Source: a virus (Duplodnaviria > Heunggongvirae > Uroviricota > Caudoviricetes). From it: a stretch of DNA of 30,815 bases. Both the position numbers and the translations under genes were made by a program. Below the pieces are notes generated by a model, which was not told the origin of the DNA, made no database searches, and worked only from the letters and a program-made list of their open reading frames with translations. The DNA is taken from IMG/VR virus record IMGVR_UViG_2531839668_000005. One strand, 5' to 3'. Shown here piece by piece: positions 28,478 to 29,530 of the stretch (the stretch's first letter is position 1; the number at the start of each line of letters is the position of its first letter).

Positions 28478-28894
28478 ATGATTGATGTCATTGGTAATAA
28501 ATACGTTGTTGCTTTAATTTTTCCATTGTTGATGATTCTATGTGGGGCTTTTGTAAAAAAACTTGCCAGATCCTCTGGTTGGCAAAAGAGTGATTTTTAC
28601 TTTGGGAATGAGTTGATATTATCGACAATTGGTGCATCATTGTTGAATTTATATGATTTGACTAAAACTGTTCAAACAGTAACCACGGTTAACCAAGTGG
28701 TTAATCAGTACATTGGAACTACTAGCTTTCTTGCCTTCTCTCTTTTTGTATTACTGGGGATCATGTCTTTTCATCAAGATTGGGAAGGGCGAACAGGAAA
28801 TCCAAAAGGTCAAATTTGGGTTTTATGTATTGGGTGTAATTTAGTCGGCATATTATTTTTTGCTTCCTTTGTTTTGTGGATTAAGGGTGTGTAA
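28478..28894 (+). CDS. polytopic membrane protein (138 aa, about four predicted TM helices)
   Basis: Four hydrophobic stretches (VVALIFPLLMILCGAFV, LILSTIGASLLNL, FLAFSLFVLLGIMSF, IWVLCIGCNLVGILFFASFVLWI); stop abuts the next ATG (TAAATG). Confidence 0.55.
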   Translation: MIDVIGNKYVVALIFPLLMILCGAFVKKLARSSGWQKSDFYFGNELILSTIGASLLNLYDLTKTVQTVTTVNQVVNQYIGTTSFLAFSLFVLLGIMSFHQDWEGRTGNPKGQIWVLCIGCNLVGILFFASFVLWIKGV

Positions 28895-29497
28895 ATGAAA
28901 AAAAATACTCTTTATATTATTTCAATTGCATTGGCTGTTGTTGGGTTTCTTATGGCTCTTATTCCACGGCTCCCATATTTATTTCAAGGAGTTAATGATG
29001 AGATTATCATCTCCGTTATTGGATTATCTTTTGCCTATTCTGGCCTGAGTTTGATTGTGTTAATGAAATTAAGGGAAAGAAGACTAAAGGCCGTTAAAAA
29101 AGGAAAGCAAATATTTCTAATGTATCCCGTACAAGAAAAAGATAAGGCCCGTCAAATAACTTGTAAGCTTAATGAGTTAGGTTTTGATGTATGGTTTGAT
29201 GAAAATAACATATTGCCCGGGCAGATTATTGAAAAGCAAATTAATCAGGCTATAGACAATAGCGCTGCGGCTATATTGCTTCTGTCTAATGAAGATATGG
29301 AGTCATATATAAGAAAGGAGGTAGAGGGCTTTCTCCGTAAAGCTACGGTAAAAGATGAAAACTATGTTCCTATAATTCCTGTGATAATTGGTGATGCTGA
29401 ATTGCCTGCGATGCTCAAAAACATCAAGTCTGTAAACTATGAGGATGAAAAATTAATTGATAAGCTCAATTTGTCATTGAAGTCCATTCTTGGTTGA
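28895..29497 (+). CDS. membrane-anchored TIR-like domain protein (200 aa)
   Basis: Two N-terminal TM helices, then a region with TIR-like secondary-structure pattern: IFLMY, FDVWFDE, AIDNSAAAILLLS, ESYIRKEVE, YVPIIPVII. Assigned by motif pattern only. Confidence 0.5.
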   Translation: MKKNTLYIISIALAVVGFLMALIPRLPYLFQGVNDEIIISVIGLSFAYSGLSLIVLMKLRERRLKAVKKGKQIFLMYPVQEKDKARQITCKLNELGFDVWFDENNILPGQIIEKQINQAIDNSAAAILLLSNEDMESYIRKEVEGFLRKATVKDENYVPIIPVIIGDAELPAMLKNIKSVNYEDEKLIDKLNLSLKSILG

Positions 29498-29502
29498 AAT
29501 AA

Positions 29503-29530
29503 GGAGTCAGAATATCTGACTCCGTTTTTT
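29503..29530. terminator. bidirectional Rho-independent terminator
   Basis: GGAGTCAG ... CTGACTCC perfect inverted repeat followed by TTTTTT, between convergent genes. Confidence 0.75.

What the first reader, a model, noticed from the sequence alone, without database searches (positions are those of the whole stretch)
28478..29530. Membrane protein + membrane-anchored TIR-like protein in the gene A / portal cargo slot of a 186-like prophage
Seen in sequence: two tightly coupled plus-strand genes (stop and start adjacent at 28892-28897), much more AT-rich than the flanking prophage core, closed by a strong bidirectional terminator. The first encodes a ~4-TM protein; the second has two TM helices then a domain whose strand/helix pattern fits a TIR fold. 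Established knowledge: the interval between replication gene A and the portal gene in P2-like prophages is a recognised hotspot for anti-phage cargo (tin, old, retrons and others), and bacterial TIR domains act as NAD+-degrading effectors in Thoeris, Pycsar and CBASS. Inference: no partner with a SIR2/SLOG, cyclase or CD-NTase signature is visible, so this is not a recognisable Thoeris, Pycsar or CBASS locus; it may be a two-component membrane-associated TIR abortive-infection module that has not been described.
Basis: partly seen in the sequence, partly recalled or inferred. Interest (0 to 1): 0.8.

Follow-up and report, generated by a model that had tools for sequence, protein, structure and literature searches.

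The report
Membrane-anchored TIR gene pair in prophage
A 186/P2-like prophage carries, next to its packaging site, two tightly coupled membrane-protein genes, one of which ends in an enzyme-type TIR immune domain; the pair belongs to a widespread but unannotated bacterial two-gene family and is most likely a new variant of TIR-based anti-phage defence, untested so far.

Summary
ORF-A (28478-28894, 138 aa, 3-4 TM helices) abuts ORF-B (28895-29497, 200 aa: two TM helices plus a TIR_2 domain, 63 bits against a cut-off of 28, with a conserved catalytic-position Glu142). The pair is AT-rich, ends at a strong bidirectional terminator, and lies between the cos-like site and the portal gene.

There is no cyclase, SIR2/SLOG or CD-NTase partner. 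No PADLOC, Pfam or NCBIfam model matches ORF-A.

New findings:
- ORF-A belongs to a real ~140-aa family with 218 representatives.
- In 48 of 65 informative loci from diverse bacteria, a ~200-aa 2TM-TIR gene follows directly.
- In 16 loci, only the 2TM hairpin follows, without TIR, and ORF-A's polar motifs are unchanged.
- The core is therefore a 4TM+2TM membrane module, and TIR is an optional cytoplasmic add-on.

A "2TM+1TM+TIR" system in the same P2 hotspot has been validated (phage AC1, Rousset 2022), but it is unrelated in sequence and architecture.

Best reading, at moderate confidence: a membrane complex whose triggered rearrangement brings the TIR domains together, switching on NAD+ cleavage and aborting infection. 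The main rival is Thoeris-like signalling to a small membrane effector.

Verdict: a new variant of a known kind. The function is untested.

The parts
28200..28223 (+). GC-rich hairpin (GCCCGCC-AGAACT-GGCGGGC) followed by TTTT. It closes the upstream cargo genes and lies in the conserved P2-like segment that precedes the variable slot.
   Evidence: Read directly from the sequence. Window 28152-28306 is the only part of the query that is conserved, in about 1270 E. coli genomes and in P2-like phages.
28269..28281 (.). cos-core-like motif GGCGTGGCGGGGA. It marks the packaging site, so the TIR pair sits between cos and the portal gene.
   Evidence: Single match, none expected by chance. The same block occurs in the P2/P4 hotspot clones of Rousset 2022. 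Its identity as the cohesive-end core rests on my own knowledge of P2/186 cos.
28478..28894 (+). ORF-A: a 138-aa integral membrane protein (3 strong and 1 weaker TM segment). Founding member here of an unannotated ~140-aa family with the motifs KKLxR, W..DFYLG.E, HQDWE, N..G and a C-terminal KGV.
   Evidence: 218 representatives with E <= 1e-3; phrog_25392, unknown function; dN/dS 0.04-0.18.
28895..29497 (+). ORF-B: a 200-aa protein with an N-terminal 2-TM hairpin (residues ~5-23 and ~37-59), a basic juxtamembrane stretch (RERRLKAVKKGK) and a cytoplasmic TIR_2 domain (residues ~72-185).
29108..29449 (+). TIR domain of ORF-B (residues 72-185).
   Evidence: Pfam TIR_2 at 63.4 bits. PDB profile hits to TIR-STING, BtTir, PdTIR and AbTir. 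AF2 model with the canonical strand/helix order, and Foldseek top hits that are all TIR domains, TM about 0.6.
29318..29320 (+). Codon for Glu142, at the position of the catalytic glutamate of NADase TIR domains.
   Evidence: Aligns with the Glu of the 'YELNG/KELDG' motif in BtTir and PdTIR. Invariant in close homologs and conserved in 33 of 35 across the family.
29503..29523 (.). Bidirectional intrinsic terminator shared by the TIR operon (+) and the portal gene (-).
   Evidence: -18.9 kcal/mol, z = -5.7.

Best explanation
The two genes encode a membrane-embedded anti-phage module carried as cargo next to cos in a 186/P2-like prophage.

Shown:
- ORF-A (4TM) and ORF-B (2TM hairpin plus cytoplasmic TIR) are translationally coupled, co-inherited and under purifying selection.
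- They belong to a bacterial family whose invariant core is the 4TM protein plus the 2TM hairpin.
- The TIR domain keeps the catalytic-position Glu and the other conserved TIR positions listed under evidence for (W100xD102, P108-G109).

Inferred:
- The two proteins form a complex in the inner membrane, with the TIR domains held apart.
- A phage-induced event at the membrane reorganises or oligomerises the complex. Candidate events are genome entry, membrane depolarisation, or a phage membrane protein.
- The rearrangement brings TIR domains together and switches on NAD+ cleavage, as in other TIR fusions activated by oligomerisation (TIR-SAVED, TIR-STING, SPARTA).
- The resulting NAD+ loss arrests or kills the cell before the competing phage completes its cycle. 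Ion leakage through the assembled TM module may add to this.
- In this reading the prophage gains by excluding rival phages.
For: Hotspot location: the pair lies between replication gene A and the portal, adjacent to a cos-like motif. This locus was experimentally shown to hold diverse defence systems, including a TIR+TM system (PMC9122126).

TIR competence: TIR_2 at 63 bits. Across 35 partners, E142 is kept in 33, W100xD102 in 35 and P108-G109 in 32 and 34. Fold-level matches are to NADase TIRs: AbTir, SPARTA, SARM1 and TIR-STING.

The pair is one unit:
- Stop and start are adjacent or overlapping in E. coli, Enterobacter, Klebsiella, Competibacteraceae, Nitrosomonas, Geobacter, Sulfitobacter and about 40 metagenome loci.
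- The two proteins diverge in parallel: 89/79%, 82/64% and 59/53% identity.
- dN/dS is 0.04-0.18.

Direct complex rather than a diffusible signal:
- 16 of 65 informative loci keep the 4TM gene plus a 66-95-aa 2TM hairpin without TIR.
- An HMM built from the N-termini of TIR partners hits, among non-TIR ORFs, only those small downstream ORFs out of 2176 ORFs searched.
- The 4TM polar motifs are equally conserved with and without TIR.

Defence context elsewhere: about 10 of 114 neighbouring ORFs at 24 TIR-type loci match PADLOC models (MADS, Cas1, AbiU, type IIG RM, AriA, SoFic, PDC candidates). Integrases, a transposase and a terminase are also present.
Against: - No functional test was possible. 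Defence, NADase activity, complex formation and the trigger are all inferred.
- The TIR is 30% identical to a putative signalling TIR of a predicted '4TM SLOG' Thoeris type. TIR subfamily therefore does not separate effector from signal generator.
- The TIR-less modules show that the membrane pair has a function of its own. That function need not be defence; their neighbourhoods are mostly housekeeping plus a few mobile-element genes.
- The structure models are only moderate or poor: pLDDT 54 for the full length and 62 for the TIR domain.
- No promoter reaching the scan's threshold was found upstream.
- The defence enrichment in neighbourhoods is rough. It uses ORF-based gene calls and has no formal background.
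Confidence: 0.4

Rival explanations
1. A Thoeris-like signalling system. The membrane-tethered TIR (acting as ThsB) senses infection and makes an ADPR-derived signal. ORF-A is a small oligomeric membrane effector that binds the signal at its conserved, partly basic, presumably cytoplasmic motifs (KKLxR, HQDWE) and breaches the membrane.
For: - Yirmiya et al. 2025 (10.64898/2025.12.03.692087) validated Thoeris types whose effectors are small TM-only proteins. ThsF/DUF2270 has 3 TM helices and is modelled as a heptamer with basic pockets, activated by 3'cADPR.
- The same paper lists further TM effectors ('3TM', '4TM SLOG').
- Rousset 2022 proposed the same logic for the AC1 TIR+TM system.
- The window TIR is 30% identical (E = 9e-8) to a '4TM SLOG'-type putative ThsB.
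- ORF-A has strictly conserved charged motifs, which sit on one face of the membrane if the weaker segment (about 41-59) spans it.
Against: - The same ORF-A motifs are equally conserved in the 14 analysed TIR-less modules, where no TIR product exists.
- The 2TM hairpin is retained when TIR is absent. This points to protein-protein coupling.
- ThsB profiles match only weakly: PF08937 at 12.9 bits against a cut-off of 21.2, and PADLOC ThsB at 1e-4 or worse.
- ORF-A matches none of DUF2270, SLATT, or any other Pfam or PADLOC model.
- The ORF-A family contains no long SLOG-fused members among the top 150 hits.
- The '3TM'-type TIRs are unrelated to this TIR.
Confidence: 0.25
2. The membrane pair is the effector and sensor (a holin-like or channel-like two-component module), and TIR is a non-enzymatic or auxiliary oligomerisation domain. 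Killing or exclusion would come from membrane permeabilisation or from blocking DNA entry (superinfection exclusion), not from NAD+ loss.
For: - TIR-less 4TM+2TM modules occur in at least four clades, including a deep one, so the membrane pair works without TIR.
- The 2TM-only partners are 66-95 aa with two TM helices and a short charged tail. From memory, that architecture resembles class II holins.
- Membrane proteins are common effectors in the P2/P4 hotspots.
Against: - Catalytic-position Glu142 and the other conserved TIR positions are kept in 33-35 of 35 partners. That is not expected for a mere adaptor domain.
- No homology to any holin, RexB, SieB or Imm model in Pfam or PHROGs beyond unknown-function families.
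Confidence: 0.15
3. The pair is not a defence system. It would be a prophage 'moron' with another role, such as membrane physiology, lysis or lysogeny control, or host interaction as with the secreted bacterial TIR virulence factors. Alternatively it is an inert passenger.
For: - No experimental data exist.
- No strong promoter was found.
- TIR-less relatives sit mostly among housekeeping genes.
- The pair is rare in E. coli: 3 of 5426 complete genomes.
Against: - Hotspot location.
- Purifying selection.
- Conservation of the pair across phyla, with defence and mobile-element neighbours.
- The TIR is tethered inside the cell, so it cannot act as a secreted TLR-mimic.
Confidence: 0.2

Closest known systems
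'2TM + 1TM + TIR' system of P2-like phage AC1 (pFD240; Rousset et al. 2022, PMC9122126)
   Same: Same hotspot (gpA-gpQ, next to cos) of a P2-like phage. It combines a TIR_2 protein with small membrane proteins, and was shown to protect against lambda, LF82_P8 and P2.
   Different: It has three genes. Its TIR is a soluble 315-aa protein with the TIR domain at the N-terminus. BLASTP finds no similarity between either AC1 membrane protein and ORF-A, or between the two TIR proteins beyond chance. In the window the TIR itself is membrane-anchored, and the partner belongs to a different, conserved 4TM family.
Thoeris types with membrane effectors (type II TM-Macro; type V ThsF/DUF2270; type VI DUF6650+TM; type VII SLATT; type X ion channel; predicted '3TM' and '4TM SLOG' types; Yirmiya et al. 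2025)
   Same: A two-gene operon of a TIR protein plus a membrane protein. Small TM-only effectors are an accepted design. A '4TM SLOG'-type TIR is 30% identical to this TIR.
   Different: ORF-A hits none of DUF2270, DUF6650, SLATT, Macro or SLOG. I found no description of a membrane-anchored ThsB in the Thoeris papers I read. The family includes TIR-less modules with the same conserved motifs. ThsB-specific profiles score below their cut-offs.
Oligomerisation-activated TIR NADase effectors (TIR-SAVED, TIR-STING, SPARTA TIR-APAZ, Avs/TIR-NLR, AbTir)
   Same: TIR is fused to another module in one polypeptide. The best PADLOC hits (SAVED_TIR, TIR-PNTD) and PDB hits (TIR-STING, AbTir, PdTIR, BtTir, SPARTA) are of this kind. 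The catalytic-position Glu is conserved.
   Different: The fused module here is a bare 2-TM hairpin working with a separate 4TM protein, not a nucleotide- or nucleic-acid-binding sensor. No cyclase, Argonaute or NTPase is present.
Toll-like / IL-1 receptors (architecture only)
   Same: A transmembrane segment followed by a cytoplasmic TIR domain, with variable extracytoplasmic loops in both subunits.
   Different: There is no ectodomain, only short periplasmic loops. The TIR keeps an enzyme-type Glu. No homology exists outside the TIR fold.

Membership tests
TIR domain superfamily (Pfam TIR_2, PF13676) | Profile score above the curated gathering threshold | tested here: met
   63.4 bits against 28 for the window protein. 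Relatives in other phyla score 83-89 bits.
TIR domain superfamily (Pfam TIR_2, PF13676) | Flavodoxin-like alternating strand/helix fold | tested here: met
   The AF2 model of residues 69-200 (pLDDT 62, pTM 0.59) has the order bA-aA-bB-aB-bC-aC-bD-bE-aE. The Foldseek PDB hits with E <= 0.001 (28) are all TIR domains, TM about 0.6. Model confidence is only moderate.
Enzymatic (NADase/cyclase) TIR domains | Conserved catalytic glutamate after strand C | tested here: met
   E142 aligns with the Glu of the BtTir and PdTIR 'YELNG/KELDG' motif. It is conserved in 33 of 35 family members.
Enzymatic (NADase/cyclase) TIR domains | NAD+ cleavage or cyclisation activity | not testable with these tools
   Requires biochemistry.
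Thoeris | A ThsB-type TIR matching ThsB profiles | tested here: not met
   PF08937 ThsB_TIR scores 12.9 bits against a cut-off of 21.2. PADLOC ThsB models give E >= 1.6e-4 over partial regions.
Thoeris | An adjacent effector of a described type (SIR2-SLOG, TM-Macro, SLOG, caspase-like, DUF2270, DUF6650, SLATT, CMP hydrolase, TIR-SLOG, ion channel, HIT) | tested here: not met
   ORF-A and 39 of its relatives have no significant Pfam hit, and the ORF-A proteins tested (window plus four from other phyla) have no PADLOC hit. The other cargo genes are DinI-like or unknown. Unnamed TM effector categories in the cut Table S1 of Yirmiya 2025 could not be checked.
Thoeris | Infection-dependent production of an ADPR-derived signal that activates the effector | not testable with these tools
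   Requires LC-MS and lysate-transfer assays.
AC1-type 2TM+1TM+TIR system (Rousset 2022) | Three genes homologous to the AC1 2TM, 1TM and TIR proteins | tested here: not met
   Here there are two genes. BLASTP against the three published AC1 proteins finds no significant alignment. Both TIRs merely hit TIR_2.
CBASS / Pycsar TIR effectors | A CD-NTase or cNMP cyclase in the operon, and a SAVED/STING/CNB sensor fused to TIR | tested here: not met
   No such domains occur in ORF-B or in any cargo gene between gene A and the portal.
P2-like phage defence hotspot cargo | Located between replication gene gpA and portal gpQ, adjacent to cos, with variable content between related prophages | tested here: met
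   Gene order runs A (23825-26239), cos-like motif (28269-28281), the pair, then the portal (29530-). Only 3 of 5426 E. coli genomes carry the pair, while about 1270 share the flanking 155 bp. The definition comes from PMC9122126.
Anti-phage defence system (any) | Reduces phage plating or propagation when expressed | not testable with these tools
No paper found names WP_000742490. The supplementary data of Wang et al. 2024 are not held.

The most novel reading that the evidence does not exclude
The family is a bacterial transmembrane TIR receptor. A 4TM subunit and a 2TM-TIR subunit, each with a variable periplasmic loop, would sense phage attack at the cell envelope (genome ejection, membrane depolarisation or a phage membrane protein). 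The complex would pass this across the membrane by clustering a cytoplasmic enzymatic TIR. That is the closest bacterial counterpart in architecture to Toll-like/IL-1 receptors, built on an older TIR-less 4TM+2TM membrane module whose own function is unknown.
Probability: 0.15. Interest if true: 0.8.

Novelty: new variant of a known kind. Interest (0 to 1): 0.55.

Why it matters
If the pair protects against phages, it adds a design not yet described among TIR immune systems. The TIR is itself tethered in the membrane and paired with a conserved small 4TM protein, with no nucleotide cyclase, SLOG/Macro receptor or NTPase.

The existence of TIR-less sister modules gives a natural experiment. It can show whether TIR was added as an effector or as a sensor to an older membrane device.

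Because both subunits reside in the membrane, the system could report on the earliest, envelope-level events of infection. The sensing step is still unknown for many bacterial TIR systems.

It also gives a name and a testable hypothesis to an unannotated protein family of about 220 sequence clusters across Proteobacteria, Desulfobacterota, cyanobacteria and many metagenomes.

Tried and rejected
1. Same as the AC1 2TM+1TM+TIR system: rejected after direct comparison with the published protein sequences.
2. Known Thoeris, CBASS or Pycsar locus: no matching partner domains.
3. The upstream 71-aa and 280-aa cargo genes as part of the system: rejected. They recur in Rousset's Table S5 with other cargo (PIN_12, DUF262/DUF1524, SieB), and the Klebsiella and Enterobacter copies of the pair lack them.
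4. Word-indexed homolog searches found only 5 TIR and 2 membrane relatives, even with a profile. The exhaustive HMMER search was needed to reveal the family.
5. The full-length AF2 model was too poor to use, pLDDT 54. The TIR-only model was used instead.
6. Search for Rosetta-stone fusions of 4TM with 2TM-TIR: none convincing. P0124 (316 aa) looks like a frameshift or gene-call artefact.
7. Phage and plasmid collections hold no homolog of the pair. The Pseudomonas plasmid TIR hit has no 4TM neighbour.
8. Literature checks:
   - The accession is not cited anywhere in the library.
   - Supplementary files for Wang 2024 are not held.
   - Yirmiya's Table S1 is cut after 'DUF2270', so the later effector categories could not be examined.
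   - The NAR 2026 domain-centric screen has nothing relevant.
9. The first search for related loci attempt, with 40 sequences, failed for lack of a conserved stretch. A 10-sequence subset worked.
10. Pfam scan of 40 family members for weak recurrent hits: only scattered noise from membrane-protein models.
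Full report
**1. The observation**

ORF-A is 28478-28894 (138 aa) and ORF-B is 28895-29497 (200 aa). The TAA of ORF-A is directly followed by the ATG of ORF-B. GC content falls to 0.32-0.36 over the pair, against 0.50-0.55 in the flanking replication gene A and the portal gene.

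A 9-bp GC-rich hairpin at 29503-29523 has a T-run on each strand. It folds at -18.9 kcal/mol (z = -5.7 against shuffles) and serves as a bidirectional terminator for the pair and the convergent portal gene.

A hydropathy scan gives ORF-A three strong TM segments and one weaker segment. It gives ORF-B two N-terminal TM helices followed by a basic stretch.

The genes are real. Compared with their Enterobacter, Klebsiella and metagenome counterparts, dN/dS is 0.04-0.18 for both.

**2. Context**

The surrounding genes are those of a 186/P2-like prophage: integrase, CI, CII/CP76, Dam methylase, replication endonuclease A, a DinI-like protein and the portal.

A motif GGCGTGGCGGGGA lies at 28269-28281, with none expected by chance. 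It sits inside a 155-bp block shared with about 1270 E. coli genomes and with P2-like phages, and with the hotspot clones printed in Rousset et al. 2022. From my own knowledge of P2/186 this is the core of the cohesive-end site. The pair therefore sits between cos and the portal gene.

This is the locus that Rousset et al. define as the P2 defence hotspot: between gpA and gpQ, adjacent to cos (PMC9122126). The pair is rare. It is 100% identical in only 3 of 5426 complete E. coli genomes, where PGAP calls the genes 'hypothetical protein' and 'TIR domain-containing protein'.

The upstream 71-aa and 280-aa cargo genes are not part of the unit. They recur in Rousset's Table S5 with other cargo. 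The Klebsiella and Enterobacter copies of the pair lack them.

**3. The TIR protein**

- ORF-B residues 72-185 match Pfam TIR_2 at 63.4 bits (gathering score 28) and TIR at 28.9 bits (21.3).
- A profile of the close homologs finds solved TIR domains in the PDB: TIR-STING, BtTir, PdTIR and AbTir. Glu142 aligns with the catalytic-position Glu of BtTir and PdTIR.
- A full-length AF2 model was poor, pLDDT 54. A TIR-only model (pLDDT 62, pTM 0.59) has the canonical strand/helix order. Its Foldseek PDB hits with E <= 0.001 (28) are all TIR domains, TM about 0.6.
- ThsB-specific profiles score below their cut-offs.
- No SIR2, SLOG, Macro, cyclase or CD-NTase domain occurs anywhere in the cargo region.

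**4. The membrane protein and its family**

ORF-A has no hit in Pfam, NCBIfam or PADLOC. PHROGs holds both proteins only as tiny families of unknown function. Word-indexed searches found almost nothing.

An exhaustive HMMER search of 1.84 billion representatives found 218 proteins with E <= 1e-3, of which 96 have E <= 1e-10. Nearly all are 125-160 aa and match end to end. Their alignment shows strictly conserved motifs:
- P16
- K27-K28-L-x-R31
- W35
- D39-F-Y/F-L-G43-x-E45
- H99-Q-D-W-E103
- N121-x-x-G124
- a C-terminal K-G-V

Scanning 40 members against Pfam gave only scattered noise.

**5. Genomic partners across bacteria**

I fetched 7 loci from species-representative genomes and 72 from metagenomes. 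I searched all their ORFs with HMMs of the two proteins. Among 65 loci with an intact 4TM gene and enough downstream sequence:

| Downstream partner | Loci | Notes |
|---|---|---|
| ~200-aa 2TM-TIR gene | 48 | Follows immediately; true gap typically a few nt or a short overlap |
| 2TM hairpin only (66-95 aa, short charged tail) | 16 | No TIR |
| Transposase | 1 | Insertion |

The TIR-linked hosts include Competibacteraceae, Nitrosomonas, Geobacter and Sulfitobacter. Their TIR partners score 83-89 bits on TIR_2. Across 35 distinct partners, E142 is kept in 33, W100xD102 in 35, and P108-G109 in 32 and 34.

The TIR-less partners are related to the hairpin of the TIR proteins. An HMM of the TIR partners' N-termini hit 57 of 2176 ORFs. 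The only hits outside the TIR ORFs were six small ORFs directly downstream of 4TM genes, three of them with E < 1e-3.

TIR-less modules fall in at least four clades of a rough 4TM tree, including a deep one. ORF-A's polar motifs are equally conserved in TIR-linked (n = 40) and TIR-less (n = 14) members.

The invariant core is therefore a 4TM+2TM membrane pair, and TIR is an optional cytoplasmic extension of the hairpin subunit.

**6. Defence context of the family**

Around 24 TIR-type loci, about 10 of 114 neighbouring ORFs match PADLOC models: MADS mad3 and mad8, Cas1, AbiU, a type IIG RM enzyme, AriA, SoFic and several PDC candidates. Integrases, a transposase and a terminase are also present, and the rest are housekeeping genes. 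This suggests a tendency to sit in defence or mobile regions. It is not a formal enrichment test.

Around TIR-less loci the sample is small and mostly housekeeping, with an integrase, an IS66 transposase, ArdC and an AAA_21 protein.

**7. What is already known**

- Rousset et al. 2022 showed that the P2-like phage AC1 carries a three-gene '2TM + 1TM + TIR' system in this hotspot. It protects against lambda, LF82_P8 and P2, and they proposed TIR signalling to the membrane proteins. I compared the published AC1 proteins with the window proteins. There is no significant similarity, the AC1 TIR is soluble with an N-terminal TIR domain, and both TIRs simply hit TIR_2.
- Wang et al. 2024 clustered all E. 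coli TIR proteins into 64 clusters and validated 12 systems, one with a TM domain. The text does not identify them by sequence and no supplement is held, so I cannot say whether this pair was tested.
- Yirmiya et al. 2025 predict 29 Thoeris types and validate seven new ones. These include small TM-only effectors such as ThsF/DUF2270, modelled as a heptamer with basic pockets and activated by 3'cADPR.
- Yirmiya's Table S1 is held only as far as 'DUF2270'. A '3TM'-type TIR from that table is unrelated to ORF-B. A '4TM SLOG'-type TIR is 30% identical.
- The ORF-A family contains no long SLOG-fused members among the 150 best hits listed.

**8. Mechanism**

Shown: there are two co-inherited, translationally coupled membrane proteins, one carrying a TIR domain with the enzyme-type Glu. 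They sit in a validated defence hotspot and belong to a family whose core works without TIR.

Inferred: the two subunits form a complex. Because the hairpin and ORF-A's motifs persist without TIR, coupling between the subunits is most simply direct (protein to protein) rather than through a diffusible TIR product.

Single-polypeptide fusions of TIR to another module are, in all the cases I know, NADase effectors switched on by induced oligomerisation: TIR-SAVED, TIR-STING, SPARTA, TIR-NLR and retron-TIR. I therefore favour, at about 0.4, a model in which a phage-induced rearrangement of the membrane complex clusters the TIR domains and triggers NAD+ loss and abortive infection. Membrane leakage may contribute.

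The rivals are:
- Thoeris-like signalling to ORF-A as a small membrane effector, about 0.25. The ThsF precedent and the '4TM SLOG' TIR similarity support it. The TIR-less modules weaken it.
- Membrane-only killing or exclusion, with TIR as an auxiliary domain, about 0.15.
- A role outside defence, about 0.2.

None of these can be settled without experiments. The decisive experiments are listed separately.

**9. Verdict**

It is a TIR-plus-membrane module in the P2 hotspot and it matches no catalogued system that I could test. The concept, however, has validated precedents in the same hotspot and in the newer Thoeris types.

What is new is the specific architecture: a TIR anchored by its own 2TM hairpin and paired with a conserved, unannotated 4TM protein. 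Also new is the family-level finding that TIR is an optional add-on to a widespread 4TM+2TM module. I rate it a new variant of a known kind, with interest about 0.55.

Noticed in passing
window 27310-28151 (T-run at 27443-27449): The upstream 280-aa cargo gene (WP_000212611.1 in strain SCU-172; phrog_3630, unknown function, with N-terminal TM helices) is split in the window by a one-base deletion in a poly-T tract, T7 against T8. This leaves ORFs of 56 aa and 224 aa. It could be a sequencing error, a pseudogene or a slippage-prone tract.
   Followed up: partly
window 27095-28151: The 71-aa and 280-aa gene pair recurs in Rousset's P2-hotspot table next to different cargo (PIN_12, DUF262/DUF1524, SieB). 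It behaves as a semi-conserved companion of the variable slot on the gene-A side of cos. Its function is unknown.
   Followed up: partly
window 28892-28897; L002 8000-8001; L007 8417-8418: In the enterobacterial copies, ORF-A and ORF-B are in the same reading frame, separated by a single TAA. Stop-codon read-through would give a 6TM-TIR fusion. In other phyla the genes overlap by 1-17 nt in different frames, so this arrangement is not general.
   Followed up: no
window 6328-18301: Immediately left of the 186-like prophage lies a second integrative element. It has its own tyrosine integrase (16928-18301), a serine recombinase/resolvase (15731-16651), two ParB/RepB-like genes (13312-15101) and a MobA/VirD2-type relaxase (6328-7563). 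No tRNA gene is present in the window.
   Followed up: partly
L012 1631-2604 (Nitrosomonas sp. Nm34): Directly downstream of the 4TM + 2TM-TIR pair are a 196-aa protein with hydrophobic segments and a prokaryotic YEATS (pYEATS, PF20305) domain protein whose gene overlaps it. They may be accessory genes of this variant.
   Followed up: no
L059 910-1695; L016 3950-4456: Examples of decay. In L059 a transposase-like ORF directly follows the 4TM gene where the partner should be. In L016 (a Rhodospirillaceae MAG) the 4TM gene diverges after the HQDWE motif and no partner follows.
   Followed up: no
L002 2378-3829 (Enterobacter sp. BNK-8): The Enterobacter copy of the pair sits in a degraded 186-like prophage remnant: CI, CII and Fil are present but gene A and the portal are absent. 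The remnant also carries a KAP-family NTPase gene next to CI.
   Followed up: no
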